From positions 1 through 64,000 of IMG/VR virus record IMGVR_UViG_3300037249_001405: a stretch of DNA of 64,000 bases, one strand, 5' to 3'. Origin of the DNA: a virus. Its lineage: Duplodnaviria; Caudoviricetes. The stretch's first letter is position 1. The number at the start of each line of letters is the position of its first letter. This document shows positions 3,772 to 64,000 of this stretch, one piece after another. The notes under the pieces were generated by a model. That model was not told the DNA's origin. It worked only from the letters and a program-made list of their open reading frames with translations, and made no database searches. The position numbers and the translations under genes are program-made.

Positions 3772-4653
3772 TTATTCACCTTTTCCTTCTAATCTTTCTT
3801 TTCTTGCTTTATATGCTTGGTATAAACCTGTAGCACTACCAGCAGCTGCAGCTAATCCGACAGGGGTAAGTACACCATTAACATTAGATCTTCTTCTTAA
3901 TTTTTTAACCAAGTCACTACTGATGTTCTTTCCACCCTTTTTAAGTTCATTATCAACCGCCTTTTCAGTCTTTCCTAGAAGAATATTACTAGTAATTGCA
4001 GAGCCAAGACCAGCTATTCCTGTGCTTAGTCCAATAGCTTTTGCTGTTCTCCAGTTTTTGTCTCTTCTTTCTTCATCAGCTTTTTCCTCCGCCTTATTAA
4101 ATTCCTTTTGGGCGTAAAAATAGCCATCAATGAAGTTAAATGTATAAGCTTTCTGAACTTCTGGATCTTCTGACTTAGATTTATGTTTCTTAAGTAAACT
4201 ATACAAGCCTGCAGCTGTTAAAGCTGTTGCTGTAGTAATACCGGCTGCTTTAATGGCGGTTTTCTCTCCCTTTGTAAGTTTATTCCACCAACCTTTTATG
4301 CCACCGCCAGAAGTACTTGATGTAGTCGATCCACTTCCACTAGAACTACCTTTAGAGCCAGCAGGCTCGGGAGTTTCTCCGTTAGTGGCTTTTCTTACAT
4401 TTTTCTTTGTAGTATCAGATACATTGGTATCATCAAAACCAGGAATATCATCGCCCTTAGCTGGGCCTTTATCTGCATACTCCCTCTGAGCTAGCATATA
4501 ACCATCTAAAAATGCAGATTCACAGAATTGTTTAACAGATTCATAGGACTCAGACATAGATTGATATCCTTTACCAGACTTACTGGTTACCCTTCCAGCC
4601 TCATATCCATGTTTATCTGCTATTATTTTTCTTTTAGTTCTTACTGTAGCCAT
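3772..4653 (-). CDS. Putative capsid-cargo protein with two Gly/Ala-rich membrane modules
   Basis: Two linkers (AFLDGYMLAQREYA, FIDGYFYAQKEFN), each followed by a module with hydrophobic Gly/Ala helices and a basic tail. Confidence 0.55.
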   Translation of the reverse strand: MATVRTKRKIIADKHGYEAGRVTSKSGKGYQSMSESYESVKQFCESAFLDGYMLAQREYADKGPAKGDDIPGFDDTNVSDTTKKNVRKATNGETPEPAGSKGSSSGSGSTTSSTSGGGIKGWWNKLTKGEKTAIKAAGITTATALTAAGLYSLLKKHKSKSEDPEVQKAYTFNFIDGYFYAQKEFNKAEEKADEERRDKNWRTAKAIGLSTGIAGLGSAITSNILLGKTEKAVDNELKKGGKNISSDLVKKLRRRSNVNGVLTPVGLAAAAGSATGLYQAYKARKERLEGKGE

Positions 4654-4662
4654 TTTTTATTA

Positions 4663-5448
4663 TTATCCATTCATAGGAACAACAGGAGGTAAGTTGTTTA
4701 GGTTTGGTTTAATTATATTATTTCCAGCCTGACTTATCCTTCTTTGCTCCAATTCTTTTGTTCTAATGAAATTCGTATTCTGTATATCAGAGGATTTTTG
4801 CGCAGCAATACCTTTTCTGGTAGCTTGACTTGCATTTGAGGCTTGTATTTTCGCTGCTTGTCTTTGAGCCCTCATTCCTTCATTTTTCTGAACGAACTGG
4901 GCCTTTTGAACCTCTCTTTGAGTTACCGCTTGTGTAGTAGCTGCTCTTCCATTTTGATTCATAGGGTTTTTATTATTATGTGTTTTCCAACCCATTCTAC
5001 GAGCAGTAGCAGCTTTTGTGATTGGTGGTGTAATAGCAAAAGATTTCTCTTTCTCTTTTTTCTTCTCATCAAGCAACTTCTTTTTTAATAGTTGTGATGC
5101 AACTACTCCAGCTAAGCCTGTGCTAGTTAAAAGAATCCCAGCCCCTCTTAATGCGGAACCATTATGCATAGGAACTGCTCCTGGTATTATACGCTTACCA
5201 TTTTTTACTCTATCCTCTATAAACTCCTTCGTGTGGTCTTTTTTAAGCTTCTTCATCTTTCTGCCTGCTAAGTAGGCATAAATACCAGTACCAGCCGTAA
5301 GACCACCTAATGTGGAAGCTAGATTTAAATTAGCTACACGATCTTTCTCCTCTTCAGTTAATTCAGGGTGATTTCCACCAAATATATCTTGTTTTAGAGA
5401 AAAGTGTTTAGCTTTATAATATTCTGTATTTCTAAGATCTATCAGCAT
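4663..5448 (-). CDS. Putative capsid-cargo glycine-zipper protein (likely start ATG 5448)
   Basis: MLIDLRNTEYYKAKHFS leader, internal EKSFA, two hydrophobic Gly-rich helices, Gln-rich C-terminus. Confidence 0.55.
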   Translation of the reverse strand: MLIDLRNTEYYKAKHFSLKQDIFGGNHPELTEEEKDRVANLNLASTLGGLTAGTGIYAYLAGRKMKKLKKDHTKEFIEDRVKNGKRIIPGAVPMHNGSALRGAGILLTSTGLAGVVASQLLKKKLLDEKKKEKEKSFAITPPITKAATARRMGWKTHNNKNPMNQNGRAATTQAVTQREVQKAQFVQKNEGMRAQRQAAKIQASNASQATRKGIAAQKSSDIQNTNFIRTKELEQRRISQAGNNIIKPNLNNLPPVVPMNG

Positions 5449-5917
5449 AATTTTTCCTCCTATCAAGTCTATCTTTAACTGAACTTCTTGTACCTATTCC
5501 ACCACCTAAAGCACCTAATGCAGCACCTATAGTGGCCATTCTGCCCATATCACCCCTAACGCTACCTAAAGCTGCACCAGAAAGAGCACCAGTAATAGCA
5601 CCAACGCTGCTTCCATGAAGTACAGATCGTCTGAGTATTTCCTTATCACTCTTCCCTTTCTTATCTAATTCTTCAGCTTTTTTATTACCAGCATGTCTAC
5701 CTAACGGACCTGATGCTACTATACCTAAACCAAGTAAGTTATTTGTATAAAGATCTTTCATCTTACTAGCACCCATTAATCCTGGTAAACCAGGGATAAC
5801 AGATCCTACTATACCTTTCTTAGTTTTATATTTAGATAGATCATCATCGTCATTTATATATGCTGGTTTTTTCTCTTCTTTTTTAGAAGAGTATAGCCTT
5901 GTTAATATAAATTTCAT
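5432..5917 (-). CDS. Putative capsid-cargo glycine-zipper protein
   Basis: MKFILTRLYS leader; GAITGALSGAALG and GAALGALGGGIG zippers. Confidence 0.6.
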   Translation of the reverse strand: MKFILTRLYSSKKEEKKPAYINDDDDLSKYKTKKGIVGSVIPGLPGLMGASKMKDLYTNNLLGLGIVASGPLGRHAGNKKAEELDKKGKSDKEILRRSVLHGSSVGAITGALSGAALGSVRGDMGRMATIGAALGALGGGIGTRSSVKDRLDRRKNYADRS

Positions 5918-5919
5918 TT

Positions 5920-6507
5920 TTAATATTCATTATCGTCATCATCCTCATCTTGTGACGTGAAATTATTATTTAGATGAGGTCTATCCTTATAAGCTTTTTC
6001 GTATTCTTTCTTCAAAATCTTCTTAAAAGAATCCGATTTCATAGCGTCTGAATCTTTCTGATAGAATTTACCCCAGCCATAAGCACCTAACGCACCTGTT
6101 CCTGCACCCACAGCAGCTCCTATTGGAGCCCATTTACTACCATGAAATAGGTAAGATTTAACTAGACCACCTAAAGCACCTGTTATACCACCAAAGATAG
6201 TTCCCTTTATTAACTGTCTTCTTCTATGTTTCTTTAATGCTCTTTTGTAAATCTCATCATCTAAGTCATCGTCGCTGATACCGTCATAGTCAGAATAATG
6301 TTTTTGAGCATGATAAGCACCTAGCGCTTTTTCCGCATCCTCTTTACTGTCGTAATGAGCATCCCAGAACTCAGGTGGATTCTGTTTATAGGAAATAATT
6401 CTCCAATCTCCATTTTGATCTTTTTGAATTACACCTTCTTTTTTACCTTTAATAGCTATATCACGTGGTACTCTTTCTCTGTAAAAACGTTCCCTTAATA
6501 TTATCAT
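5920..6507 (-). CDS. Putative capsid-cargo protein (small globular module + glycine zipper)
   Basis: MIILRERFY leader; GVIQKDQNGDWRIIS...HYDSKEDAEKAL module; QKHYS; GxxxG zippers. Confidence 0.55.
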   Translation of the reverse strand: MIILRERFYRERVPRDIAIKGKKEGVIQKDQNGDWRIISYKQNPPEFWDAHYDSKEDAEKALGAYHAQKHYSDYDGISDDDLDDEIYKRALKKHRRRQLIKGTIFGGITGALGGLVKSYLFHGSKWAPIGAAVGAGTGALGAYGWGKFYQKDSDAMKSDSFKKILKKEYEKAYKDRPHLNNNFTSQDEDDDDNEY

Positions 6508-6520
6508 TTTATTAATCGAA

Positions 6521-7018
6521 TTAATAATCCCTTCCCCTGAATCCGTTTATAGTACCGGTAATTCCGCCTAATGCACCTATACCTGCAGCACCCTTTAAAC
6601 CCCATTCAGGAATAGTATCCCAGTTACCTGTAATTGCTCCAGCAATAGCACCAGCACCGAGACCAAGAAGACCACCTTTCCATGCACCGTTGAATATTCC
6701 AGTAGCTGCTCCTTGAACAGCTCCTTTCACACCACCATCCGTGTCTCTAATATCACCAAAGACACCATTAGGATTATCTCCTCTTAGTGAAGCAGCAATA
6801 CCACGCAAATAACCACCAGAGAAGCGCTTGGTCTTCCTCTTTAAAGAGGATTTATTCTTTTTATCTTTATCATCATCTTTCTTATTTTTCCTTTTACCAA
6901 GTTTATCTGAAATATATTTGTAAGCATTTCTTGTTCTTCTCCTTTTACTTACTTCTTTAAACTCTCGCTTTAAACTGGATAAATCGGAAAAATTCTTATC
7001 TTTTATATATATAATCAT
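6521..7018 (-). CDS. Putative capsid-cargo glycine-zipper protein
   Basis: MIIYIKDKNFS leader, TKRFS, long GxxxG zipper. Confidence 0.6.
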   Translation of the reverse strand: MIIYIKDKNFSDLSSLKREFKEVSKRRRTRNAYKYISDKLGKRKNKKDDDKDKKNKSSLKRKTKRFSGGYLRGIAASLRGDNPNGVFGDIRDTDGGVKGAVQGAATGIFNGAWKGGLLGLGAGAIAGAITGNWDTIPEWGLKGAAGIGALGGITGTINGFRGRDY

Positions 7019-7086
7019 AGTGATTTTCAGATTAATTAGCTATAAATAAGGTATAAGTAGATAAAATAGAAAATTCAAACCATATT

Positions 7087-28476: not shown

Positions 28477-28478
28477 AA

Positions 28479-48948: not shown

Positions 48949-48949
48949 A

Positions 48950-49381
48950 ATGAGTATAGAAGAAAGAATTTATAGTGAAGCATTTGAAGATGGTGTAAAT
49001 TACGCTATTCAGAGAATGTTTGGAGATGATGAAGAAAAGAAGCCTAAGAAGTGGCCTTATGTTGTTGGAGGCACTGCTGGTGGTATAGTAGGAGGCGCTA
49101 TTGGTACAGGAGCAGGTATGATTAGTGCTGGTAATAGTATAGTTAAAAAAGTCAAAGATACTAATAAAGCTCTCTATGATGAAGTGCAACGTGCCCCGAC
49201 TTGGGAAAAACTAAGTAAAAAGACCCAAGAAAAAATGAGTAAGTATGCAGAGGAAGCTGGTACTAGTATGCTGAAGAGAGGAGCTGTAGGTGGCTTAATT
49301 GGAGCTGGCATACCAGCTGCAACAGCAATAGCTTTATATCATCGCAAGAAAAAAGAATTAAATAAAAAAGATAGGGATTAA
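48950..49381 (+). CDS. Cargo glycine-zipper protein (start ATG 48950)
   Basis: MSIEERIYSEAFEDGVNYAIQRMFG leader, identical to that of 62885-63403. Confidence 0.65.
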   Translation: MSIEERIYSEAFEDGVNYAIQRMFGDDEEKKPKKWPYVVGGTAGGIVGGAIGTGAGMISAGNSIVKKVKDTNKALYDEVQRAPTWEKLSKKTQEKMSKYAEEAGTSMLKRGAVGGLIGAGIPAATAIALYHRKKKELNKKDRD

Positions 49382-49396
49382 TCCCTATCTTTTTTA
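49363..49396. terminator. Bidirectional terminator
   Basis: AAAAAAGATAGGGATTAATCCCTATCTTTTTT palindrome between convergent genes. Confidence 0.8.
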
Positions 49397-49408
49397 TTTT
49401 TATTTAGT

Positions 49409-50479
49409 TTAGTCACGATCGCGACGTCTTCCTCTTAAGAAACCTGCTGTTCCGATACCAGCACCAGCTACGCCAGCACCAATAGCACCGTACTTCCATC
49501 TCTTAGCGAGTTTCTCAGCAGCTTCCTTAGCCTTCCTGGTGTTATCATGAAGCATTTGTTCTGTATTAAATGCTGTCTTGAATCCTTCAACCTTATCTTC
49601 TGCTGCCTTCAATCCCTGCGCTAATACACTATTTTTCTTATTAGCTTCTCTCAATCCTTGCTGTAATACGCCATTTTTACCCCTAGCTGTTTCTAAAGCA
49701 GACTCTAATTCTTTCCTAGAAATCTCTCCTTTTCTGTAAAGATCTTCGTAATATTTAGCATCTACTGCACCTGACACCGGATTATCCTTACCTTTACCCA
49801 CTACTGCAGAAAGGTTAGAAGAACCTTTACCCACTACTGCAGGAAGGTTAGAAGATCCCTTTTGTTTTTGTTGGTGCTGTTCGTACATATTTACGAATGC
49901 TTGCTCCACTTTCTTTTTATTCTCTTTTGCAACTTTTTCAGCTTCTTTGGCTGCTTTTTCTTTGGCTGCTTTTTTAGCTGCTTCTTTAGTCCTATTAATG
50001 AGATCGTTATATTCTGAATTAGACATATTTTCTGGGTCGAAGAACAATTTTTCGATAGCATAATCTATTCCAGCCTCGAATCCCTCACTATAGGTTTTAT
50101 CCTTCTTAGTAGCTTTGTGAATACCGTAACCAGCAGCAGCTAATACTGGTGCAGCGGCAGCTGCAATCATACCAGCTTTACCCCACTTACCAGCTTTCAT
50201 GTATCTATCCTTTACACTCTTAGGCAGACCTTTAATTTTGTCCCAAAGAGACTTTTCATAGTTTCCTCTCAAGCCTGGATCACCAGCAGGACCAATTGCT
50301 AGAGGACTATTAGCAGGCGGTAACTTATCAGCAAACATTTTTTCGATAGCATAATCTATTCCATCTTCAAATGCTTCTGAGTATAGTTTTTGTGAGAAAT
50401 AATCATCGAATTCGTCATAGCTATTGTCAAAGTCATCGTAATCATTGGCAATAGAAAACACTTTACGTCTTACGTACAT
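49409..50479 (-). CDS. Two-module cargo protein
   Basis: MYVRRKVFS leader, two YSExFExG linkers, module shared with 35059-35835, coiled coil, C-terminal Gly zipper. Confidence 0.65.
   Translation of the reverse strand: MYVRRKVFSIANDYDDFDNSYDEFDDYFSQKLYSEAFEDGIDYAIEKMFADKLPPANSPLAIGPAGDPGLRGNYEKSLWDKIKGLPKSVKDRYMKAGKWGKAGMIAAAAAPVLAAAGYGIHKATKKDKTYSEGFEAGIDYAIEKLFFDPENMSNSEYNDLINRTKEAAKKAAKEKAAKEAEKVAKENKKKVEQAFVNMYEQHQQKQKGSSNLPAVVGKGSSNLSAVVGKGKDNPVSGAVDAKYYEDLYRKGEISRKELESALETARGKNGVLQQGLREANKKNSVLAQGLKAAEDKVEGFKTAFNTEQMLHDNTRKAKEAAEKLAKRWKYGAIGAGVAGAGIGTAGFLRGRRRDRD
50049..50383 (-). repeat. Second copy of the module at 35471-35805
   Basis: Near-identical DNA and protein. Confidence 0.9.
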
Positions 50480-50588
50480 TTTTATTATCTATTTTAATTA
50501 TTAATTCTTATACAAAATAATTTCTATTTTCAACTTATTAGATTTTTGTTGATTTTTTCAAAAAAGTTTAGTTTATATAAAATACTAT

Positions 50589-51134
50589 TTATTTATTATC
50601 TTTATTCTTCAATATATTATATAAACCAGCACTCGTTAACCCTATTCCTAAACCAACTCCAGTACTAATTCCCTTACTCTTCAGAACGCTGTCTCTTATC
50701 GGCTTAATTTTCTTTTCTAATTGTTCAATCTCTGATTTTTTCTTAGAAATCATGTCTTTTAGCCTAGAAACCTCAGATCTATTTTGTTCAATATCTTCGC
50801 TTAATTCTTTTGCATTTGGTTTACCGGCGAAAACATCTAATACATCTTTAAAACCTGCTTTTAAACTCTTTAGTCTATCTACTTTAGATAAATCATTTTT
50901 TAACGTAGATAAAGTTTCCTTACTTCTCTCAAGTTCTTCTGCAAGTTTTTTATGTTCTTTTATTTCGTCCCTCGATCTAAATCCTCCGTAAATATTTCCT
51001 CCAAGTGCACCTACTCCTCCACCAATTACAAGCGGTGTTAGATTATCGTGACTATCATCACTATTATGAGAGTAATATTTTTCTTCTATATAATGAATTC
51101 CATCATTGAATCCCTCTAAGTAACTATTATTCAT
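50589..51134 (-). CDS. Cargo protein: zipper - coiled coil - zipper
   Basis: YLEGFNDGIHYIEEKYYS, a degenerate linker. Confidence 0.6.
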   Translation of the reverse strand: MNNSYLEGFNDGIHYIEEKYYSHNSDDSHDNLTPLVIGGGVGALGGNIYGGFRSRDEIKEHKKLAEELERSKETLSTLKNDLSKVDRLKSLKAGFKDVLDVFAGKPNAKELSEDIEQNRSEVSRLKDMISKKKSEIEQLEKKIKPIRDSVLKSKGISTGVGLGIGLTSAGLYNILKNKDNK

Positions 51135-51205
51135 CTTTTAATATTTTTTATTAGTGTTACAAATATAAGATTACTGTTTATAGTTGAGGTAATTTTGTGA
51201 GAGTT

Positions 51206-51781
51206 TTAATAAGATGTCTGAGAATTATTGTTTTTGTTATTCCGAGTAAGTCCATAAGTAATTCCACCAATAGCAGCTAATCCACCTGCAACACCCAAAC
51301 CTATTTTAGCATTTCTCGAGAGAAAAGGCTTATTTCCGGTATTTACGTGTGGTTGTGGTTTATTTCCTGTATTTACTGGAGGTTTATTTCCTGTATTTAC
51401 TGGAGGTTTATTTCCTGTATTTACTGGAGGTTTATTTCCTGTATTTACTGGAGGTTTATTTCCTGTATTTGTTGTTGTCGTAGAGGTTACGCCAGGTTGT
51501 TGCTGTATGGGTTGCTGTATAGGTTTTTGTATTGGCTTAGCACTAGTAAAGTAATCATCCCCAACTAAACCTTTTCTTTTTGCATAATTCAGTCTTTGTT
51601 GTACTTCTGGGTCAGCCATAATTTGTTCAACAGTGGCTTCGCCTCTTTCTATTTTACCCCTATGGTATTCTAGTTCTTTCTTTATTTTCTCGTTTCTGGA
51701 TTCTGCTGAAAATAGTCTAATTACATAATCAATACCATCTTCAAACCCGGAACAATAAACTTTTTGTTTATAAAAAATCAT
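51206..51781 (-). CDS. Cargo protein with NTGNKPPV repeats and C-terminal TM
   Basis: MIFYKQKVYCSGFEDGIDYVIRLFS leader/linker. Confidence 0.6.
   Translation of the reverse strand: MIFYKQKVYCSGFEDGIDYVIRLFSAESRNEKIKKELEYHRGKIERGEATVEQIMADPEVQQRLNYAKRKGLVGDDYFTSAKPIQKPIQQPIQQQPGVTSTTTTNTGNKPPVNTGNKPPVNTGNKPPVNTGNKPPVNTGNKPQPHVNTGNKPFLSRNAKIGLGVAGGLAAIGGITYGLTRNNKNNNSQTSY
51357..51470. repeat. 24-bp tandem repeat (4 full copies + 1 partial)
   Basis: GGTTTATTTCCTGTATTTACTGGA at 51357, 51381, 51405, 51429, partial at 51453; degenerate copy near 51327. Confidence 0.95.
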
Positions 51782-51784
51782 CTT

Positions 51785-52624
51785 TTACTTATTTTTCTTG
51801 ATTAAATTTACGATTCTTCTCGTATATTTATCCTCCATGTTTATTTTATCTGGATGTTTTTCAAGTAACTCTTTGTAATAATCTATATTATTCTTTTTAA
51901 CTGCCCCGAAAGGAAATTCCAGCTTAAGGTATTCTGAAGGTATATCTTTAAAAACTCTGATTTCATCCAAAGAATCCATTGTTTTATTAGTATTGTACCG
52001 TCTAACGTATTCATCATTAGGTAAATCTATTTTCCACCTAACGACACTACTACTTCTTTTCCCCGGATTATTAAAACTTGAGTTAACCCCGGTATCACCA
52101 TCAATATACTTAAACTGTTGTCTGGCACGATCCATTTGCTCATGTGGCTTAGATATATTAAGTAATTCGTTTTTAATATCATCCTTACTACCTAAGTAAG
52201 TACTTACGCTACCCCCAACACGATCTTTGCGGTCGGTATTTCCTTTTAAGATACCTTTTTCAAGGATACTATCTACAGTAGTTATTGGTTCGTATCTATG
52301 TAGAGTAACTACGTCAGGAAGTCCTTCTGGAGATTTAAAATTCAGATGATTTTTATGAAGTCCGTATTTAGGTCTAATACCACCATTAACTCCATACATC
52401 TCTGGGTGCCTCCTTCTATACTCCTCTCCATTTTTATAGTTTTTTAAGAATCTACTATTAGGATCTAGTTTTTCAGCTAAATCTAAGACCCTTTTAGGAG
52501 TCTCAACCCCCTCTATGTCTGATATTATCTTATAGATATTATTTTTTTCCCCTAATTTATCTAGGATGGCACTTCTTACTCTTCTTGAATGTATTCCAAA
52601 TAACTTTGTTCTTAACAGTTTCAT
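51785..52624 (-). CDS. Putative ADP-ribosyltransferase-fold cargo protein
   Basis: MKLLRTKLFG leader; LHRYEPITTVDSILEKGI...VSTYL...EIRVFKDIPSEYL resembles the Tpt1/DarT-like ART pattern. Confidence 0.45.
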   Translation of the reverse strand: MKLLRTKLFGIHSRRVRSAILDKLGEKNNIYKIISDIEGVETPKRVLDLAEKLDPNSRFLKNYKNGEEYRRRHPEMYGVNGGIRPKYGLHKNHLNFKSPEGLPDVVTLHRYEPITTVDSILEKGILKGNTDRKDRVGGSVSTYLGSKDDIKNELLNISKPHEQMDRARQQFKYIDGDTGVNSSFNNPGKRSSSVVRWKIDLPNDEYVRRYNTNKTMDSLDEIRVFKDIPSEYLKLEFPFGAVKKNNIDYYKELLEKHPDKINMEDKYTRRIVNLIKKNK

Positions 52625-52936
52625 TTAATTAACTACATTTCTTAATAATTCATCTAATCTATTTTTAGGTATAAGTTGAAGAATCGTACCCTCTTGAAAT
52701 CCATCTAAAGATTTTCTACTCTGAACTATAACTAAACCCATATAACTTTCATCACCATAGAACCTTTTAGCAATAAGATCAGGACGACATTCACTTGTCT
52801 GGATTAAATATGGGATTTTTTCAAGCTTCGGATCTAAAATCATTGAAAGGAATTTAGAGTTATATATATCAAACCCCTCAACATAATTACCTAAATTTTC
52901 TATTTTTGAGATAAGTCTCTGTGGTTTTGTATACAT
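52625..52936 (-). CDS. Baseplate wedge LysM-like protein (gp53-like)
   Basis: RPDLIAKRFYGDESY...GTILQLIP signature. Confidence 0.7.
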   Translation of the reverse strand: MYTKPQRLISKIENLGNYVEGFDIYNSKFLSMILDPKLEKIPYLIQTSECRPDLIAKRFYGDESYMGLVIVQSRKSLDGFQEGTILQLIPKNRLDELLRNVVN

Positions 52937-52938
52937 GA

Positions 52939-54834
52939 TTAAAATATATTTTCAACCATTGATTGGAATCTCTTTTGTGTATCCTCAAATGCACTGTGAG
53001 TAACTTTATCTAAGGCTTGTTTAGCCTTTTCAAAATTACCTCCAACACCACCTTCTAAGTACTCAGAATATTTTTGTAAGCAAGAAAATACGGCGCCACA
53101 AACAGCATCAAATAAATCTTTTGTACCAGGTTGTTCACCAGTAACATTTTTATAATCAAATTCAGTACAACTAGAAATCAACGGGTGATCTAATTTAACA
53201 TGTGAATTCGTCTTACCGTTTGTAACTATACGTATTTCAGAACATTCCCTCATTAATATATTACAATAAGGAAGTTCTATTCTCTCTGTATTGACAATAT
53301 TTTTAAATGCTACACCAGCATCCATTGTTTTATCAATAGAAATCGATTTATATTCTATACCATCTCTTTCACAAGATTGAAATATACCAGAAGATGCAAA
53401 AGAGTCTGCGCTGAAAGTTACATAATAACCTTCATTGATGAGATCTTTTAAAAACTGATATAAATGATCCAGTGATGTAGATTGTCCTTTCTTTCTTGAT
53501 ACTACAAATAATAGAGGTACTTTAAAAGTTGGATACTGAGCTGTTCCAGTTGGATCTGAAACTTCTCCTGAGTAATAACACAAGCAGACTCCTGTTTTAT
53601 CTTTCTGTAAACCAATATCGTAATGAACAAACAGATTAGTTCTTTTTGGAACTTTATACAACATTGTTCTTACGTGATCTATAATTCTATCTGACTTGTC
53701 ATAGAAGTCCACAATGACTTCTTCTGGTGCATAATTACGAATCTTAGAACAATTCATTAGATGACTAAGATCACCATTGAAGAATAAAGATGCACCAGTA
53801 TATGGGATACCTGCTAAATCCTGTAAACTTCTAACTGGATTTGCTAGAAAGTGGTGTTTAGCTGAAATAGGAACCTTAACTATTCTATCTAAATCTATAC
53901 CGGACTTTATAGGATCCTCACCAGGATTCATACATCTTGGGACTTGTTTTGAATCCCCTATGAAAAAATCAAATGTTTTTCCCTCACTCTCAGCATAAAG
54001 TTCTGGTCTAACTTCCCACTGACTTGGGTGTATACAAAATAATTCTTTTTGTGGTACAATTTCTTCAAATCTTTGGCTTGCACCGTGATCCGCATCCTTT
54101 GCACTGGAGTCTGCAACAACCCCACCAAAATTAAATCGTTTGTTCTTGAAACGAGATTCATAACGAGTTAGAACCTCATCCATTTTCTCCTTAGCATCTT
54201 GAACCTTCCAGAAACCAATCTCAGAAAGCACACAATAAATCAATTGAGTACCGATAACTGATCCTGTTGATTTAGGTCCAGATGCAATCATTCTTATAGG
54301 AGGTTTATTATACTGTTGCCTGAAATAAGGACTTGTATCAAATACAAATTTATAAAACTGAACAAAATCCCTATAGGCTGTTTCAGAACTAGCATGGAAG
54401 AAACCAAAAGCTAATTTAGTACCACCAGCTAATCCAACACTATGAAACACATTTTGACAACAATCCAACCTATGAAAATGATATAACCCAATCATTTTTG
54501 ATTGATAAGATTTACCAGTACCAATAGCACCTGAAAAAGAAATAAATGGAGTACGAGTTATAACAGGATTTGGAAAAATAACTTTAAATTTATCTAACCA
54601 ATAAGCAAATATTTGCTTACCATGATTTGTTATTGTATCACACCCTAAATAATACTCATCAAATAAAAACTGCTCCATTGTTACAGGTATATGATTCATA
54701 CCTAATAACTTACAAGCTATTTGTAATTTTTCTTTTTCAGATAATTTTTTGTATTGGGCTTCTAGAGATACTGCATTGGGGTCAAAAGGAGTTGTAGGAT
54801 CTGATTGGTTTATAAAATTTGTATTCTCTGCCAT
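52939..54834 (-). CDS. terL: Terminase large subunit
   Basis: Walker A GAIGTGKS, Walker B-like YCVLSE, nuclease motifs VHYDIG, SADSF, KLDHP, KDLFDAVCG. Confidence 0.85.
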   Translation of the reverse strand: MAENTNFINQSDPTTPFDPNAVSLEAQYKKLSEKEKLQIACKLLGMNHIPVTMEQFLFDEYYLGCDTITNHGKQIFAYWLDKFKVIFPNPVITRTPFISFSGAIGTGKSYQSKMIGLYHFHRLDCCQNVFHSVGLAGGTKLAFGFFHASSETAYRDFVQFYKFVFDTSPYFRQQYNKPPIRMIASGPKSTGSVIGTQLIYCVLSEIGFWKVQDAKEKMDEVLTRYESRFKNKRFNFGGVVADSSAKDADHGASQRFEEIVPQKELFCIHPSQWEVRPELYAESEGKTFDFFIGDSKQVPRCMNPGEDPIKSGIDLDRIVKVPISAKHHFLANPVRSLQDLAGIPYTGASLFFNGDLSHLMNCSKIRNYAPEEVIVDFYDKSDRIIDHVRTMLYKVPKRTNLFVHYDIGLQKDKTGVCLCYYSGEVSDPTGTAQYPTFKVPLLFVVSRKKGQSTSLDHLYQFLKDLINEGYYVTFSADSFASSGIFQSCERDGIEYKSISIDKTMDAGVAFKNIVNTERIELPYCNILMRECSEIRIVTNGKTNSHVKLDHPLISSCTEFDYKNVTGEQPGTKDLFDAVCGAVFSCLQKYSEYLEGGVGGNFEKAKQALDKVTHSAFEDTQKRFQSMVENIF

Positions 54835-54848
54835 ATTACGTTAATTTT

Positions 54849-55307
54849 TTAATACAAATATCCTTTACCTATAAATGATGCAGCTCTTTGTTGTAGAGCT
54901 GGGGCTGATGGGTTATTTCCTCCTCTAGAGGGAAATTCACTTTTGACGGTTGTATTAGTCATTTGTCCCCCACCATTCTTAAATGATTTATAGAATTTGT
55001 CTAACTCCCCTGGGGAAGTTCTATTTACTTCATTCCTAGCGTATTGAAAACTCTCTTCCATATCCTTTGGAAGTTTACCACCCTTTTTCATGTATCGTCT
55101 AAATATTTCTTCTTTATCACCAGATCCTGCCCAAGAATAAGCAGATCTATGCTTAGAAGCTATTCTCAACATTTTTTCTATAGTAGGGTGTGTATACATT
55201 TTTTCAACAGCATAATTCATACCGTCGCTAAATCCGGTTGCAGCAATATCATTTCGGTAGTCAAATTCAGTATATGTCTTTCTTTTTAATGTGAATGTAC
55301 TTGCCAT
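54849..55307 (-). CDS. Putative cargo protein
   Basis: LKRKTYT leader and GFSDGMNYAVEKMYT linker. Confidence 0.55.
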   Translation of the reverse strand: MASTFTLKRKTYTEFDYRNDIAATGFSDGMNYAVEKMYTHPTIEKMLRIASKHRSAYSWAGSGDKEEIFRRYMKKGGKLPKDMEESFQYARNEVNRTSPGELDKFYKSFKNGGGQMTNTTVKSEFPSRGGNNPSAPALQQRAASFIGKGYLY

Positions 55308-55308
55308 T

Positions 55309-55509
55309 TTACTCGTTACTTCTTAGCGGGTTAAATTCTGTATAATTCCTTTGGGTTGTATCATTACTACCATCCTCTACGCCAGTTGTGAATGTTTTCT
55401 GACGTTCGCCGCTTACCTTAGGCGCAGTTGGTATTTTATTTCCATTTGGATTAACAATGTTTGATTGACCACCCATCATTAGATCCATTATATTAAATCT
55501 TGTTCCCAT
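55309..55509 (-). CDS. Small hypothetical protein
   Basis: 66 aa, tightly coupled to neighbours, internal QKTFT. Confidence 0.5.
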   Translation of the reverse strand: MGTRFNIMDLMMGGQSNIVNPNGNKIPTAPKVSGERQKTFTTGVEDGSNDTTQRNYTEFNPLRSNE

Positions 55510-60012: not shown

Positions 60013-61215
60013 TTATTTGCGTTTCTTTTTTCTATTTTTATATAAATAATAACTTCCTAAACCTAACCCAGCAATTCCTGCTGTAACCAAACCAGCTTTT
60101 GCTAAGTTATTTAGTTTTAGTCTAGAATTAATTACAGGTTCCTTGACATTATTACCTTTTTGTGGTGTTATATCAATAGTGTCTTTAATTACTCTTTTAT
60201 TGTTACTATTAATTTTATCATTACTACCGTGAGACTCTACTTTTTCTTTTTCTGCTTTGGTTTTGGATATTTTCTCTTCTACTATTTTTTGTTCATTAGC
60301 AGCTTCTTTAACAAAATCTTCTTTCGTTGTAGGCTGTGTAGATTGTACTGTGGGTTTCTTTAAATCAATTCCCATTAACTTTGCTATTCTTCTAGTATAA
60401 GCATCACTAGCATCTAATTTTTCTTTTGGTATTTTCTTGATTGTATTCAAATATGTATTGAAATTATCTTTAGTAACAGCAGCAAAAGGTATTTGAACTT
60501 TTATTTTCTCAGGAGGTACTGTTATCACATTATTCCAATCAGTGATTCTCCACTCTAAATTATTATACAACATCTCTGGTTGTCTACCCTCTTCAGAAAC
60601 ATCACACACAAGTCTAATTAAACACTTATGTGGATCTTGTGCAAATCCACCCTCTCCATCTATTAAAGATAGCTGTTGATAATGTAGCGGATACCTACTA
60701 TCTTTGTACAAGCCAACTATATTAGGTTGTCTATAATCTTTTAGTTTTTTATACTTTATAGTATTATCCCCCTTGATCTTTATTCTTTCTATATCATTTA
60801 CTAGTCCATCTGGGCTGTGATAAAACCCTTCCTTTACGCGTTCAGTTTCTATAGGAGTCTTTCCGAATAAAATATCTATATCATCTACATTTTTTCCACA
60901 TTTATCCTTTATGAGCTTTATAACTTCATCCTCTACTTTTTCATTGTACTTATGAGCAGCTTCGTTATAAGACTCAATTAGTGGATTAATTCGTTTATTC
61001 CTTTCTATATGTTTATTTATTTTATTTACGGCATCTTTCCACGATATCTGATCTTTTTTCATAAAATCAGTATCTGGTAAGAAAAAAGACAGTGACAAAG
61101 CTCTTCCGCCGTTTCTTGATTTGTTGTTTAATCCTTCTTTAAGAATATTTGGTAAATTTTCTAAAGGAGTATAATGATGGACTATTGTAAATAATTTAGT
61201 TCTATATAATTTCAT
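60013..61215 (-). CDS. Putative ADP-ribosyltransferase-fold cargo protein with C-terminal TM
   Basis: MKLYRTKLFT leader immediately followed by VHHYTPLENLPNILKEGL (DarT/Tpt1-like); LSLSFF; EWRI...VPPEKI; C-terminal AGLVTAGIAGLGLGSYYL plus basic tail. Confidence 0.55.
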   Translation of the reverse strand: MKLYRTKLFTIVHHYTPLENLPNILKEGLNNKSRNGGRALSLSFFLPDTDFMKKDQISWKDAVNKINKHIERNKRINPLIESYNEAAHKYNEKVEDEVIKLIKDKCGKNVDDIDILFGKTPIETERVKEGFYHSPDGLVNDIERIKIKGDNTIKYKKLKDYRQPNIVGLYKDSRYPLHYQQLSLIDGEGGFAQDPHKCLIRLVCDVSEEGRQPEMLYNNLEWRITDWNNVITVPPEKIKVQIPFAAVTKDNFNTYLNTIKKIPKEKLDASDAYTRRIAKLMGIDLKKPTVQSTQPTTKEDFVKEAANEQKIVEEKISKTKAEKEKVESHGSNDKINSNNKRVIKDTIDITPQKGNNVKEPVINSRLKLNNLAKAGLVTAGIAGLGLGSYYLYKNRKKKRK

Positions 61216-61333
61216 TTTTATATTATCTTATTATGTAATCTGAAATGAAAAAAAAAAACAGTTTCCTTATTATTTGATTATAAGGGTAATGTTTATTTAT
61301 AACTATGATATAAAATATTAAAATAGAACAAAA

Positions 61334-62329
61334 ATGATTATACTAAGAACAAAGCACTTTGGATTTTACGACCAAAGCGGTAAATTACTTGAGAAATATA
61401 CTAAAGGTAATGGACTTAAAAGATTTCAAAACTGGAAAGAAGGAATTTTAAGACAGTATAAAACGAGACTTAAAGAAGGAGGTTTGAGTACAGACCTCTC
61501 TGAAAAAGAAATAGAAAATATATTAAAAGAGCAGAGTAGGTCGAGAGATGCTGCAGTAAATACATGGGCCAATGAAAGAAAAAATTTAACTTCTCAAATT
61601 GATAAGAACTCTAAACGGTTAAATGCGATTGCAAAAAAGTTAACAGAGTCAGAAAAAGCTGGTAAAATTAGCCATGCAGAAGCAGAAGCTGGTAAAGATT
61701 TCTATGGAAACGAATTAGGTGGAGCTATTAATATTCTTGAGAATAATAGAAAAAATATAGGTTTAGGACAACTAGGACTAAAAAGGGAACCTAAAGGTAG
61801 ATTTGCAAAATACTCTAAACCAGGAGCTCACGAGGCTTATGATGAATCTAAGATAAATGATTTTCTCAGTGAAAGACAGCAAAAGGCTGCTGCTCAGAAG
61901 AAGCAACAGCAAGCAATAATTGATGCACAAAATGCTAATCAAAATTTACAAGAAAATTTAAATAACGCTAATAAACAAATTAGTGATTTAACTAATCAAA
62001 ATCAATTCTTACATCAGCAGCAGGGTATTCATGCTAAAAACTTCAATAATGAAGTTAATAAAAATAAAGATCTAACAAATAAGTATAAAGATCTAGATAG
62101 CAGATATAATGAATCTGTAGAAGAAATTAAGAGATTGCATGAGAAATACAACAAAGATGTTGAAGGGTTAATTAATTCGCACAAGAATAGTATGTCTGTT
62201 GTTGAAAAAGAAAAGAAAGAGTTAGAGGATTCTAGAAATAAGTGGAAATACGGTGCTTTTGCGGCCGGTGGTTTAGGTTTAGCTGGAACAACGGCTGCAG
62301 CTATAGCTGCTAGAAGTAAAGATGAATAA
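61334..62329 (+). CDS. Cargo coiled-coil protein with C-terminal TM
   Basis: MIILRTKHFG leader; WKYGA-zipper end shared with 49409-50479. Confidence 0.6.
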   Translation: MIILRTKHFGFYDQSGKLLEKYTKGNGLKRFQNWKEGILRQYKTRLKEGGLSTDLSEKEIENILKEQSRSRDAAVNTWANERKNLTSQIDKNSKRLNAIAKKLTESEKAGKISHAEAEAGKDFYGNELGGAINILENNRKNIGLGQLGLKREPKGRFAKYSKPGAHEAYDESKINDFLSERQQKAAAQKKQQQAIIDAQNANQNLQENLNNANKQISDLTNQNQFLHQQQGIHAKNFNNEVNKNKDLTNKYKDLDSRYNESVEEIKRLHEKYNKDVEGLINSHKNSMSVVEKEKKELEDSRNKWKYGAFAAGGLGLAGTTAAAIAARSKDE

Positions 62330-62367
62330 AAAAAAAATAATAGGCATTTAAGCCTATTATTTTTTTT
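62330..62367. terminator. Bidirectional terminator
   Basis: AAAATAATAGGC-ATTTAA-GCCTATTATTTT. Confidence 0.75.
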
Positions 62368-62883
62368 ATCTTCCTTCTTTTTTCCTCATTTCTTTCCTTC
62401 TTCTTATAGCCTCCTCAGCATTTTCATTTATTCCTGGTTTAGCCTTTTTATTAACGAATTTAGAAGCGTAATAGTCTAAGGCCGCTCCAGACAGAGAACC
62501 TGCTGCAACAGCTCCTGCCTTCCTTAGGTTACCAGGTTTACCGTAAAGTTCATGTAAACCATGACCCATTAATCCACCACCTAAAGCACCAAATCCAGTA
62601 GCAATTTTCTGATGGACATCAGAAGCTTTGTCGTATGAATCATTAGCAATCTTTCTAATCTGTTCATCAGATTTTCCTTCTCTGATTCCCTGATTTATCT
62701 TATTTTTAGCGTGACCATAAGGGTAGGCCATCCAGGGGAAAAACCCTTTAAAGTTACTTGCATATTTGGCTTCTCTTTCTAGATCCTCATCAGTTGTATT
62801 TTTTTTTTCCCGAACATCTTCTGAATAGCATAATTTACACCATCCTCAAATGCTTCACTATAAATTCTTTCCTCTATACTCAT
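62366..62883 (-). pseudogene. Cargo glycine-zipper gene split by a frameshift in an A10 tract
   Basis: ATG 62883 gives MSIEERIYSEAFEDGVNYAIQKMFGKKK; one extra A in the tract at 62799-62808 would join it to ORF 62366-62731. Confidence 0.7.
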
Positions 62884-62884
62884 T

Positions 62885-63403
62885 TTATTTTTTATCTTTA
62901 TTATCTTTTTTCTTAGATAAATAATGTGAGAGAGCTCCTATACCAGCACCAGCTGCTACTGGTATACCGATAGAACGCGAAGTTACCTTTTTTGCTAGTT
63001 TTTCATAGGTTGGCTTAAGTCTCTTTATTTCACTCTCGTTTAATCTATTAAGTCCTCTAGCCACTTTAGCTTCCTCCGCTAATTCAGCTGCTTTTTTACT
63101 ATTTCCAACCATTCTGTGGTGCATAGAGTATTCATCAGCATACTTAGCTCGTCTTTCCATCTTATTTCTATCAGAGATAGCTTCTTGATACTTCTTATTA
63201 ATACTGTCAAATTCTTTTAAAGTATCTTTACCTACTAGATTACGCCCAAGGAAAGCCCCAGCACCAAAGCCTAAACCAGCACCAGTAAGTGAACTTCTTA
63301 GATAACTGCCCTCATTTTTTTCATCATCACCAAACATTCTCTGGATAGCGTAATTTACGCCATCTTCAAATGCTTCACTATAAATTCTTTCTTCTATACT
63401 CAT
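62885..63403 (-). CDS. Cargo glycine-zipper protein
   Basis: MSIEERIYSEAFEDGVNYAIQRMFG leader; two zippers; KKKDNKDKK tail. Confidence 0.65.
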   Translation of the reverse strand: MSIEERIYSEAFEDGVNYAIQRMFGDDEKNEGSYLRSSLTGAGLGFGAGAFLGRNLVGKDTLKEFDSINKKYQEAISDRNKMERRAKYADEYSMHHRMVGNSKKAAELAEEAKVARGLNRLNESEIKRLKPTYEKLAKKVTSRSIGIPVAAGAGIGALSHYLSKKKDNKDKK

Positions 63404-63405
63404 TT

Positions 63406-64000
63406 TTATTTTTTATCTTTATTCTTAAAATATTTTTTATATAAATCATTAGTTAGAAGAGCTGTTCCAACACCTACAGTGGCGCCTAGAGCTGCTCTAG
63501 GATAGATAGATTTACGTAGATCACTCCTGAAAATTCTTTTTGCTTCTGGATTTTGGTCACAGACATCTTTTATCTTTTTATATAATTTCCAAGAAGGTTT
63601 TGGTGACTCTGTAGGCTTTTTAGTATCAGCATCGATAAATTTAATGTTTTTCAGATGTTGATCTCTACCATTAACCGCTCCAAAATAACCACCCATTAAT
63701 CCTGTACTAATTGGCACTACTAAATCATCTCCACTACTCTCTTTAGTAGATTCAGGTTTACTATAAAATTTATTTTTCCATCTATCAAATTTATCCTTAT
63801 TTCTTTCCTCTCTTCTTTCCTCTTTTTTCTTCAAAGATTGGTGTACAGCAAAACCTATACTCAAAGCACCTAATCCTATTAAGCCGGATTTCCAAGGATT
63901 TTCTTTAACCCATTTAACTGCACTTTTCCAGAGACTAGGCTTTACTTCACCTGTTGTAGCGTCTTTAACAACATTAGCTGGTGCAGCATTATTAGCTGGA
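63406..64000 (-). CDS. Multi-module cargo protein, partial (start beyond window)
   Basis: Frame is open upstream of the TTG at 63864 to the window end (PANNAAPANVVKD...WKSGLIGLGAL); internal NKFYS. Confidence 0.6.
   Translation of the reverse strand, partial: PANNAAPANVVKDATTGEVKPSLWKSAVKWVKENPWKSGLIGLGALSIGFAVHQSLKKKEERREERNKDKFDRWKNKFYSKPESTKESSGDDLVVPISTGLMGGYFGAVNGRDQHLKNIKFIDADTKKPTESPKPSWKLYKKIKDVCDQNPEAKRIFRSDLRKSIYPRAALGATVGVGTALLTNDLYKKYFKNKDKK

What the first reader, a model, noticed from the sequence alone, without database searches (positions are those of the whole stretch)
3772..64000. Window-wide [K/R]-x-[F/Y]-[S/A/G/T] signal: probable prohead-protease processing/packaging code for ~25-30 capsid cargo proteins
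Seen: many unrelated ORFs begin with a 9-13 aa hydrophobic/basic leader ending in the motif. Examples: MKFILTRLYS, MIIYIKDKNFS, MIVYTNRYFS, MKKFRRRSKTFA, MARYRLKRKTFG, MIVYINKHYS, MAIFRQKIFT, MILILKRVTFS, MYVRRKVFS, MKLLRTKLFG, MKLYRTKLFT, MIILRTKHFG. The motif and close variants also recur about 20 times in the scaffold, 4 times in the protease C-terminal tail (REFS, KEFS, KEFS, KTFS), in the Zn-ribbon core protein, and twice near the capsid N-terminus (KMFS, KTFS). It is absent from the N-termini of sheath, tube, tape measure and baseplate proteins. Known: T4 gp21 and phiKZ gp175 cleave scaffold, capsid, themselves and internal proteins after Glu, and T4 internal proteins use a short N-terminal capsid-targeting sequence. 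Inference: this phage uses a maturation protease with aromatic P1 specificity plus a leader that loads an unusually large, diverse cargo set for ejection into the host.
Basis: partly seen in the sequence, partly recalled or inferred. Interest (0 to 1): 0.88.

Follow-up and report, generated by a model that had tools for sequence, protein, structure and literature searches.

The report
Aromatic-site capsid protease code in jumbo phage
An uncultured gut-type jumbo phage carries a T4-like capsid-maturation protease, and a short conserved tag (basic, any, Phe/Tyr, then Ser or another small residue) marks about 20-25 of its proteins, so the probable processed head proteins can be read from sequence alone; cleavage itself has not been shown.

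Summary
In the 210-kb phage contig, 26 of 226 ORFs have [KR]-x-[FY]-[SAGT] with the aromatic residue at position 6-13 (5.8 +/- 2.4 in shuffles). Twenty of them lie in the first 66 kb. An acidic 813-aa protein next to the capsid gene has 17 copies (0.83 expected). The Zn-ribbon protein has 6, the protease linker 4, and the capsid N-terminus 2.

ORF 45954-47282 has the T4 gp21 / herpesvirus assemblin fold (Z 12.7) and invariant His/Ser/Asp candidates. Its four linker sites are conserved in 48 homologues.

Orthologues in related phages, about 40-50% identical, keep 11-19 scaffold sites. The invariant capsid core starts directly after the second site. Genes that are fused here are separate, leader-bearing genes in relatives, split exactly at internal sites.

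The T4/phiKZ-type x-Glu motifs are not enriched.

Best reading (0.7): this is the recognition code of a gp21-fold prohead protease with changed specificity, plus a 9-residue hydrophobic-basic propeptide. Cleavage, the scissile bond, capsid loading and ejection remain inferred.

I found no cultured relative, no proteomics and no report of the motif in the papers searched. It is a new variant of a known kind. Other first-reader notes on this same genome touch the same motif.

The parts
45954..47282 (-). Prohead protease candidate (442 aa). It has an N-terminal catalytic domain of about 1-190, a variable linker of about 195-290 and a helical C-terminal domain of about 290-425.
   Evidence: The AF2 model (pLDDT 76) matches T4 gp21 (5jbl) with Z 12.7, rmsd 2.6 A over 134 residues, and matches HCMV, HSV-2 and EBV assemblins with Z 7.7-9.3. 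H49, H89, S142, D169 and S175 are invariant in 48 homologues. A weak hhalign match puts H49 on T4 gp21 H85. There is no Pfam or PHROG hit.
46416..46670 (-). Protease linker (residues about 205-289) with four motif copies, aromatic residues at 207, 231, 260 and 288.
   Evidence: All four are conserved in homologues down to 48% identity, while the flanking sequence and length vary. In 37 full-length representatives of 50%-identity clusters there are 128 sites in the 120 residues after the catalytic domain, against 11.5 expected.
45031..45954 (-). Four-Cys Zn-ribbon protein (307 aa) with 6 motif copies, two of them at residues 7 and 17.
   Evidence: 6 against 0.6 expected. Cys pairs are at residues 30/33 and 48/51. 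Orthologues keep 5-9 copies. Each window site is shared in position by 12-16 of 16 orthologues. Identity is 0.73 at site columns and 0.38 elsewhere.
42569..45010 (-). Acidic 813-aa scaffold-like protein with 17 motif copies.
   Evidence: 17 against 0.83 expected, p about 5e-17. Sixteen orthologues at 39-81% identity keep 11-19 copies (expected about 1.2 or less). Twelve of the 17 sites are shared in position by at least 13 of 16 orthologues. It lies between the protease and the capsid gene, as gene 22 does in T4.
41034..42548 (-). Major capsid protein candidate (504 aa), gp23-like.
   Evidence: The nearest ESM Atlas clusters carry PF07068 Gp23 (score 0.97-0.98). It is 59-79% identical to the capsid gene of 80 related viral contigs. 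The AF2 model was poor (pLDDT 53), so the fold is not confirmed here.
42357..42440 (-). Capsid N-terminal region holding the two motif copies (residues 37-40 and 61-64).
   Evidence: Both are conserved in all 16 orthologues, while residues 43-60 between them vary. The invariant block of the protein begins directly after the second site. The same arrangement is seen in the distant locus L090.
38102..38743 (-). 213-aa protein with a 9-residue leader and an internal conserved site (K141-x-F143) in a hypervariable linker.
   Evidence: It has the highest leader PSSM score (19.2 bits). The leader is conserved in 9 orthologues. F143 is invariant and K141 nearly invariant, inside a low-complexity linker that varies in length.
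37875..38102 (-). 75-aa protein with an N-terminal leader.
   Evidence: Orthologues in 15 loci all start with a leader ending in basic-x-aromatic-Ser.
37591..37893 (-). 100-aa protein with an 11-residue leader.
   Evidence: 18.0 bits. The leader is nearly identical in 11 orthologues at 28-65% overall identity.
35862..37574 (-). 570-aa protein with a leader and four internal motif copies (residues 116, 126, 225, 458).
   Evidence: Orthologues keep the hydrophobic-basic leader, but the residue after the aromatic is often large (F, W, V, L).
35059..35835 (-). 258-aa protein with two copies of a 16-residue module, each bracketed by two motif copies (aromatics at 11, 27, 108, 124).
   Evidence: The N-terminal leader junction of 16 of 17 orthologues maps onto internal site 124 or 108.
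33199..34968 (-). 589-aa fusion protein with no N-terminal leader but two internal leader-like elements ending at residues 101 and 395.
   Evidence: In loci L066 and L071 the matching parts are separate genes. Their N-terminal leaders align to residues 93-101 and 389-395.
28117..29843 (-). Two leader-bearing ORFs (119 aa and 454 aa) inside the tail gene block.
   Evidence: Their position argues against a simple 'head genes only' rule.
5432..7018 (-). Leader-bearing small proteins next to the presumed baseplate genes: 5432-5917 and 6521-7018, plus a variant at 5920-6507.
   Evidence: ORF 5432-5917 has a glycine-zipper domain (PF13436, E 4e-7) and a weak match to P22 ejection protein gp7 (E 0.014).
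48556..55509 (.). Cluster of leader- or module-bearing ORFs on both strands: 48556-48948, 48950-49381, 49409-50479, 50589-51134, 51206-51781, 51785-52624, 54849-55307, and 55309-55509 (internal sites only).
60013..64000 (.). Leader-bearing larger proteins: 60013-61215(-), 61334-62329(+), 62885-63403(-), and 63406-65265(-). The leader of the last one lies just outside the window.
   Evidence: C-terminal Gly-rich hydrophobic segments are visible in the translations.
30672..33158 (-). Tail sheath candidate (828 aa), used as a leaderless comparison protein.
   Evidence: The Atlas nearest clusters are named 'tail sheath'; one of them carries PF17482 in 98% of members (score 0.96-0.97). There is no leader here or in 15 orthologues. 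Motif count is at expectation.

Best explanation
The tetrapeptide basic-x-Phe/Tyr-Ser (Ser sometimes Gly, Thr or Ala) is the recognition site of the phage's own prohead maturation protease (45954-47282). This is a gp21/assemblin-fold serine protease whose specificity differs from the Glu-specific T4 and phiKZ-type enzymes.

Proposed sequence of events inside the prohead:
- The enzyme frees itself by cutting its linker at four sites.
- It chops the acidic 813-aa scaffold-like protein and the Zn-ribbon protein into small pieces.
- It removes about 63 residues from the capsid protein.
- It trims a 9-12-residue propeptide from some 20 other proteins, and separates the modules of fused ('polyprotein') genes.

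The N-terminal propeptide has a second part that internal sites lack: Met, then Ile, then a hydrophobic and two basic residues at fixed spacing. This part probably acts like the T4 capsid-targeting sequence and brings the protein into the assembling core.

Shown here: the motif, its enrichment, its conservation, its position at module boundaries, and the protease fold.

Inferred: that cleavage happens, that the scissile bond is between the aromatic and the small residue, the targeting role, and ejection into the host.
For: 1. Enrichment. 26 N-termini against 5.8 +/- 2.4. 17 against 0.83 in the scaffold-like protein and 6 against 0.6 in the Zn-ribbon protein. It is the top pattern in an unbiased scan.

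2. Peptide-level signal. The 45 sites use 44 distinct codon 12-mers.

3. Protease identity. 5jbl (T4 gp21) gives Z 12.7, rmsd 2.6 A over 134 residues, and herpesvirus assemblins give Z 7.7-9.3. His, Ser and Asp candidates are invariant, and a weak hhalign match puts H49 on T4 H85. Gene order is protease, scaffold-like protein, capsid, as in T4 genes 21-22-23.

4. Conserved islands.
- The four linker sites are conserved in 48 homologues and in 35 of 37 distant cluster representatives (128 sites against 11.5 expected).
- Scaffold orthologues keep 11-19 sites, mostly at the same alignment columns.
- Both capsid sites are conserved, and the invariant core starts right after the second.
- K141-x-F143 is conserved inside a hypervariable linker.

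5. Natural fusion and fission. The leader junctions of orthologues coincide with internal sites of the window proteins in 20 of 31 mapped cases against 6.6 expected. Most misses come from alignments that start far inside the orthologue.

6. Leader profile from 296 distinct N-termini of relatives. Met at P9 in 59%, basic at P5 in 79%, Lys at P3 in 88%, Phe/Tyr at P1, and S/G/T/A at P1' in 81%. Internal sites share only P3, P1 and P1'.

7. The same system is present in a distant locus, L090.

8. Published precedent. T4 and SPN3US proteases cut at P3-x-P1 motifs, SPN3US prefers Ser at P1', and T4 uses 10-20-residue targeting propeptides (PMC10052503; PMC5694885).
Against: - There is no protein-level data: the clade has no cultured member in the GenBank phage set.
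- There is no sequence-level match to S77 or any protease family. The catalytic triad assignment rests on a weak alignment and on invariance.
- In the protease model, residues 227-261, which include two of the four linker sites, form beta strands of moderate confidence. They may be structural rather than exposed.
- Orthologues of 35862-37574 often have a large residue after the aromatic, and 38760-39131 keeps a leader-like start without the aromatic core. The leader is therefore not always a canonical site.
- Several leader-bearing genes lie among tail genes.
Confidence: 0.7

Rival explanations
1. The motif is an uncleaved docking peptide. As a short linear motif, it would bind a pocket on the capsid shell, portal or scaffold, like the cargo-loading peptides of encapsulins. 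It would load cargo and tether the scaffold multivalently without proteolysis.
For: Many copies in the scaffold-like protein would suit multivalent binding. The N-terminal leaders carry extra conserved hydrophobic-basic positions that internal sites lack. One conserved leader-like N-terminus lacks the aromatic core (38760-39131). No cleavage has been observed.
Against: A docking motif does not explain four conserved copies in the protease's own linker. It does not explain two copies bracketing a variable segment just before the invariant capsid core. It also does not explain why fused genes keep the motif exactly at module junctions that are gene starts in relatives. The distribution copies the known substrate classes of T4-type proteases.
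Confidence: 0.12
2. The sites are cut, but by a different enzyme. One candidate is a host protease of the Prp type, which cuts Phe|Ala after a short N-terminal leader in ribosomal protein L27 and in staphylococcal phage 80alpha head proteins. The other candidates are the phage's own leader-bearing HExxH metallopeptidase-like proteins.
For: Prp removes 13-14 N-terminal residues from the capsid and scaffold proteins of 80alpha by cutting between F and A (PMC5744158). That is the closest known leader in shape. Three leader-bearing ORFs outside the window have HExxH motifs and weak metallopeptidase matches.
Against: No Prp homologue is found in the contig, although only about 56% of the genome is held. 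The related Jug phages are predicted to infect Bacteroides or Phocaeicola (PMC12880540). From my own knowledge, not tested here, L27 in that phylum has no leader. The conserved basic residue at P3 is not part of the L27 motif as I recall it. The gp21-fold enzyme carries conserved copies in its own linker, the signature of self-processing. The HExxH proteins carry the leader themselves, so they look like substrates.
Confidence: 0.08
3. The N-terminal pattern is a by-product of selection at the RNA level: A/U-rich, unstructured first codons for translation start in a host without Shine-Dalgarno use. It would not be a peptide signal.
For: The consensus leader residues (Ile, Lys, Phe, Arg as AGA, Gln, Glu) are all encoded by A/U-rich codons, and the genome is 28-40% G+C.
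Against: The same tetrapeptide is enriched and positionally conserved far from any start codon. Codons at the sites are diverse, with TTC commoner than TTT and CGT/CGC also used. The presumably highly expressed capsid and sheath genes lack the leader. Spacing from Met is fixed and position-specific.
Confidence: 0.03

Closest known systems
T4 gp21 prohead protease system (gp21, gp22 scaffold, gp23 capsid, internal proteins and Alt with a capsid-targeting sequence)
   Same: The protease fold is the same (Z 12.7 to 5jbl). Gene order is protease, scaffold, capsid. The substrate classes match: self, scaffold cut at many sites, about 60-65 residues at the capsid N-terminus, and short N-terminal propeptides on many other proteins. 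The site has a P3-x-P1 architecture.
   Different: There is no detectable sequence similarity. The enriched motif has a basic P3 and an aromatic P1, whereas T4 has an aliphatic P3 and Glu at P1; the x-Glu motifs are at expectation here. The protease has a long linker and a helical C-terminal domain of about 135 residues.
phiKZ gp175 / SPN3US gp245 proteases of giant phages
   Same: A giant-phage head with many processed proteins, a gp21-type His/Ser/Asp enzyme, a Ser preference at P1' and multiple sites within propeptides (PMC10052503; PMC5694885).
   Different: Those enzymes cut after A-x-E, and their propeptides are often longer than 100 residues. Here the leaders are mostly 9-12 residues with a fixed hydrophobic-basic pattern, and the key residue is aromatic.
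Herpesvirus assemblin (maturational protease)
   Same: The fold is shared (Z 7.7-9.3). From my own knowledge, not tested here, assemblin also has Ser at P1' (Ala|Ser) and cuts itself and the scaffold.
   Different: The assemblin triad is His/Ser/His and P1 is Ala. There is no set of N-terminal leaders on many cargo proteins.
Prp (phage-related ribosomal protease) cleavage of L27 and of 80alpha capsid and scaffold proteins
   Same: A short N-terminal leader ends in Phe and is followed by a small residue, and it is shared by non-homologous head proteins (PMC5744158).
   Different: Prp is a host cysteine protease of Firmicutes and has no match in this contig. It has only a few substrates, no multi-site scaffold degradation, and no basic P3 requirement as far as I recall.

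Membership tests
T4 gp21-type prohead protease (MEROPS S77 / Pfam PF03420; herpesvirus assemblin fold) | Assemblin/gp21 fold of the catalytic domain | tested here: met
   Foldseek top hits are 5jbl chains A-C (probability 1.00, TM 0.59-0.62). VIA-align gives Z 12.7, rmsd 2.6 A over 134 residues, followed by HCMV, HSV-2 and EBV proteases at Z 7.7-9.3.
T4 gp21-type prohead protease (MEROPS S77 / Pfam PF03420; herpesvirus assemblin fold) | Sequence match to the family profile | tested here: not met
   PF03420 finds nothing in the contig at E up to 1. Pfam and PHROGs scans of the protein give 0 families. The profile search against PDB sequences finds no protease.
T4 gp21-type prohead protease (MEROPS S77 / Pfam PF03420; herpesvirus assemblin fold) | His/Ser/Asp catalytic triad in the order His...Ser...Asp | tested here: inconclusive
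   H49, S142 and D169 (and also H89 and S175) are invariant in 48 homologues. hhalign against T4 gp21 is weak (E 0.038, probability 1.4%), but it places H49 on T4 residue H85 within a shared G-x-L-x-H-x-x-R stretch. Model coordinates could not be inspected.
T4 gp21-type prohead protease (MEROPS S77 / Pfam PF03420; herpesvirus assemblin fold) | Gene lies beside the scaffold and major capsid genes | tested here: met
   The order is 45954-47282, 45031-45954, 42569-45010, 41034-42548 on one strand. T4 has the order 21-22-23.
T4 gp21-type prohead protease (MEROPS S77 / Pfam PF03420; herpesvirus assemblin fold) | Cleavage after Glu in an aliphatic/small-x-Glu motif | tested here: not met
   In the scaffold-like protein, aliphatic-x-acidic (45 against 45.8), [AG]-x-acidic (27 against 32.9) and [ST]-x-acidic (26 against 26.1) are all at expectation. 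Basic-x-aromatic-[ST] is 13 against 0.38. This tests enrichment of motifs, not cleavage.
T4-type capsid-targeting sequence (short cleaved N-terminal propeptide) | 10-20-residue N-terminal peptide ending at a protease site and shared by unrelated head proteins | tested here: met
   Leaders of 9-12 residues end in the motif on about 20 unrelated ORFs. The profile comes from 296 distinct N-termini in relatives.
T4-type capsid-targeting sequence (short cleaved N-terminal propeptide) | The peptide is sufficient to load a protein into the prohead and is then removed | not testable with these tools
   This needs a leader-reporter packaging assay or virion proteomics.
Prp / L27-type leader processing | A Prp (PF04327) cysteine protease is available in the phage or host | tested here: inconclusive
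   There is no PF04327 match in the 210-kb contig. The contig is about 56% of the genome, and the host genome was not examined.
gp23-type major capsid protein (PF07068) | Similarity to the gp23 family | tested here: inconclusive
   Atlas feature search puts it nearest to clusters with PF07068 (0.97-0.98). Pfam scan gives 0 families. hhalign against T4 gp23 gives E 0.02 over 46 columns. The AF2 model is too poor to search (pLDDT 53).

The most novel reading that the evidence does not exclude
A large, uncultured family of jumbo-phage prohead proteases has switched from Glu to a basic-P3 / aromatic-P1 / Ser-P1' specificity. The family has 238 clusters at 50% identity and includes the abundant human-gut Jug phages. 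It would use a transferable 9-residue tag that both targets proteins to the prohead and is then removed. On that reading the complete packaged and ejected proteome can be read from sequence in any member. That proteome would include glycine-zipper membrane proteins, three Zn-metallopeptidase-like proteins and two possible ADP-ribosyltransferase-like proteins. Genes would also be free to fuse into, and split out of, polyproteins at these sites.
Probability: 0.45. Interest if true: 0.72.

Novelty: new variant of a known kind. Interest (0 to 1): 0.62.

Why it matters
Jug-type phages are reported to make up about 1% of human gut metagenome reads, and none is cultured (PMC12880540). Almost none of their structural proteins match Pfam or PHROGs.

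If the motif is the protease code, it gives a sequence-only way to do three things:
- list which of the hundreds of unknown genes encode head-internal or ejected proteins;
- define their mature N-termini;
- find module boundaries in fused genes.

It would also show that the gp21/assemblin fold can move from an acidic to an aromatic P1 pocket. And it would supply a short tag that could be tried for loading foreign proteins into such capsids.

The prediction can be tested directly with existing gut metaproteomes, or with a recombinant domain of about 190 residues and synthetic peptides.

Tried and rejected
- megablast and tblastn of the head genes and the protease against 50,697 GenBank phage records: no match. 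There is therefore no cultured relative and no proteomics to consult.
- Pfam and PHROGs scans of 30 window proteins: almost nothing. One slot was wasted on a 20-residue fragment.
- Searches of the contig with PF04327 (Prp) and PF03420 (S77): no match.
- Profile search of the protease family against PDB sequences: only a chance hit.
- hhalign of the capsid alignment against T4 gp23: a short weak match only.
- AF2 model of the capsid protein from 16 sequences: pLDDT 53, too poor for a fold search, so the start of the HK97-type fold relative to site 2 could not be placed.
- Complex prediction of the catalytic domain (1-195) with the first 40 residues of 38102-38743: no verdict (score 0.01, mark 0.32). 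This is not evidence either way.
- BLASTP of the protease C-terminal domain against the Zn-ribbon protein: no similarity.
- Literature searches for an aromatic-P1 prohead protease, or for a Jug-phage virion proteome: nothing found.
- A DNA-repeat explanation is rejected on codon diversity.
- A Glu-type site explanation is rejected on lack of enrichment.

Full report
CONTEXT. The window is the first 64 kb of a 210,316-bp IMG/VR viral contig that CheckV rates about 56% complete. Its capsid gene is 59-79% identical to genes on 80 viral contigs, many of them 350-400 kb long. These correspond in size and source to the 'Jug' jumbo gut phages, which are predicted to infect Bacteroides or Phocaeicola (PMC12880540). 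That paper reports no virion proteomics and no cleavage motif. GenBank phage records hold no relative at DNA or protein level.

All quoted leaders are present. I called 226 non-overlapping ORFs over the whole contig.
- [KR]-x-[FY]-[SAGT] with the aromatic at residue 6-13 occurs in 26 ORFs. Shuffles of residues 2-20 give 5.8 +/- 2.4 (maximum 15 in 2000). Equal windows placed deeper in the proteins give 3-7.
- Twenty of 63 ORFs in the first 66 kb carry it, against 6 of 163 elsewhere.
- The acidic 813-aa protein has 17 copies against 0.83 expected, and the Zn-ribbon protein 6 against 0.6. The protease linker has 4 and the capsid N-terminus 2.
- In an unbiased scan of all reduced-alphabet a.bc patterns, basic-x-aromatic-[ST] ranks first in the 813-aa protein, in the Zn-ribbon protein and at N-termini. 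The T4- and phiKZ-type x-Glu patterns sit at expectation.
- Site codons are diverse, with 44 distinct 12-mers in 45 sites.
- Outside the first 66 kb the motif is neither enriched nor depleted.

THE PROTEASE. ORF 45954-47282 matches no Pfam, PHROG or PDB sequence. An AF2 model built from 48 homologues has pLDDT 76, with the N-terminal domain mostly above 85.
- The model matches T4 gp21 (5jbl) as the top Foldseek hit. VIA-align gives Z 12.7, rmsd 2.6 A over 134 residues.
- HCMV, HSV-2 and EBV assemblins follow at Z 7.7-9.3.
- H49, H89, S142, D169 and S175 are invariant.
- A weak hhalign match aligns H49 with T4 H85. T4 gp21 and SPN3US gp245 use a His/Ser/Asp triad (PMC5694885). The likely triad here is therefore H49/S142/D169. 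This is an inference.
- A disordered linker and a helical C-terminal domain follow the catalytic domain.

CONSERVATION.
- The four linker sites are conserved in homologues down to 48% identity, while the linker around them varies in sequence and length.
- A profile search of 1.84 billion representatives found 238 clusters. In 37 full-length representatives, the 120 residues after the catalytic domain hold 128 sites against 11.5 expected, and 35 of 37 have at least two. Some first sites have Met in place of Phe/Tyr.
- Scaffold orthologues at 39-51% identity keep 11-19 sites, and Zn-ribbon orthologues keep 5-9. The sheath and a 365-aa neighbour are at expectation.
- Twelve of the 17 scaffold sites and all six Zn-ribbon sites are shared in position by most orthologues.
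- In the capsid protein both sites are conserved in all 16 orthologues, the segment between them varies, and the invariant core starts directly after site 2.
- In 38102-38743 a K-x-F island is conserved inside a hypervariable, low-complexity linker.
- A distant contig, L090, shows the whole system again.

THE LEADER HAS TWO PARTS. I took 296 distinct leader-bearing N-termini within 10 kb of the capsid gene in relatives. That is more than half of the 540 distinct N-termini there, though they are not independent.
- Met is at P9 in 59%.
- P6 is hydrophobic (L, F or I in 75%).
- P5 is basic in 79%.
- P4 is Arg or Gln.
- P3 is Lys in 88%.
- P1 is Phe (78%) or Tyr (22%).
- P1' is S/G/T/A in 81%.
Internal sites share only P3, P1 and P1' (Ser 82%) and sit in acidic surroundings. 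A PSSM built from the relatives finds 15 N-termini in this contig at 8 bits or more, against 1.2 expected.

FUSION AND FISSION.
- The 258-aa protein 35059-35835 has internal sites at residues 108 and 124. The N-terminal leader junctions of 16 of 17 orthologues map onto them.
- The 589-aa protein 33199-34968 has no N-terminal leader. It contains two internal leader-like elements, ending at residues 101 and 395. In L066 and L071 the matching parts are separate genes that begin with leaders.
- Overall, 20 of 31 mapped junctions coincide with a window site, against 6.6 expected.
- This is the strongest indirect evidence that the motif marks ends of mature polypeptides.

WHO CARRIES IT.
- In the window, 18 ORFs have the strict N-terminal motif. 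Four or five more have close variants: 48556, 5920, 40232, 51206 and 38760.
- The protease, capsid protein, 33199-34968 and 55309-55509 have internal sites only.
- That gives roughly 22-27 candidate substrates.
- Many have Gly-rich hydrophobic segments. ORF 5432-5917 has a glycine-zipper domain and a weak match to P22 ejection protein gp7.
- Beyond the window, leaders occur on 63406-65265, 65376-65939, 90684-91595, 121080-122105 and 155347-156174. The last three have HExxH motifs.
- The sheath candidate lacks a leader in every relative.
- Four leader-bearing ORFs lie among tail and baseplate genes. The head-only assignment is therefore not secure for all.

MECHANISM. The distribution reproduces each substrate class of T4-type proteases: the enzyme itself, the scaffold at many sites, about 60 residues of the capsid N-terminus, and short propeptides on internal proteins. 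The most economical reading is a gp21-fold enzyme with a changed pocket. It would cut between the aromatic residue and the small residue. This follows the analogy with P3-x-P1 sites and with the Ser preference at P1' in SPN3US (PMC10052503). The hydrophobic-basic half of the leader would serve as a targeting element. Cleavage, the scissile bond, targeting and ejection are all inferred.

RIVALS. The rivals are an uncleaved docking motif, a different protease (host Prp-type, which cuts F|A in 80alpha head proteins according to PMC5744158, or the HExxH proteins), and an RNA-level start-codon context effect. Each explains part of the data. None explains the conserved sites in the protease linker, the capsid boundary and the fusion junctions together.

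NOVELTY. The kind of system is known. The specificity, the fixed 9-residue leader, the breadth of the uncultured protease family and the gene fusion and fission at sites are not described in the papers I could search. I rate it a new variant of a known kind. Other first-reader notes on this same genome (polyprotein, reused module, leader-bearing enzyme pairs) touch the same motif. Nothing from other genomes was retrieved.

Noticed in passing
window 35059-35835, 48950-49381, 49409-50479, 50589-51134, 51206-51781, 54849-55307, 62885-63403: A 16-residue module (aromatic-x-[DE]-G-[VI]-x-Y-A core) recurs 10 times in 8 proteins. It is usually bracketed by two copies of the motif, so it would be released as a free peptide. 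In relatives the same mature domain is preceded by an ordinary 9-residue leader instead.
   Followed up: partly
contig 90684-91595 (L084), 121080-122105 (L085), 155347-156174 (L086), outside the window: Three leader-bearing proteins far from the structural genes each contain an HExxH motif. Two of them have weak metallopeptidase Pfam matches (E about 0.01). They may be packaged Zn-peptidases.
   Followed up: partly
window 51785-52624 and 60013-61215: Two paralogous leader-bearing proteins share conserved blocks. No Pfam match was found.
   Followed up: no
L003:5868-6266 and L052:6205-6633: In some Jug-type relatives the protease homologue appears only as a short ORF covering part of the protein. 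This fits the published remark that the portal and protease genes are fragmented in Jug phages.
   Followed up: no
window 38760-39131: This 123-aa protein has a conserved leader-like start (Met-Ile-x-Phe-Arg-Gln-Lys-Lys) in this phage and in 15 relatives. It often lacks the aromatic/small-residue core, so it may be a targeting peptide that is not removed.
   Followed up: no
proteins P0196-P0269: The helical C-terminal domain of the protease also occurs alone, at residues of about 90-250 of many 250-350-aa proteins. Separately, the catalytic domain occurs alone as 160-180-aa proteins. The two domains are therefore split in some lineages.
   Followed up: no
contig 192596-194545, outside the window: The phage appears to encode a GroES/GroEL-like chaperonin pair. 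This is judged from the N-terminal translations only.
   Followed up: no
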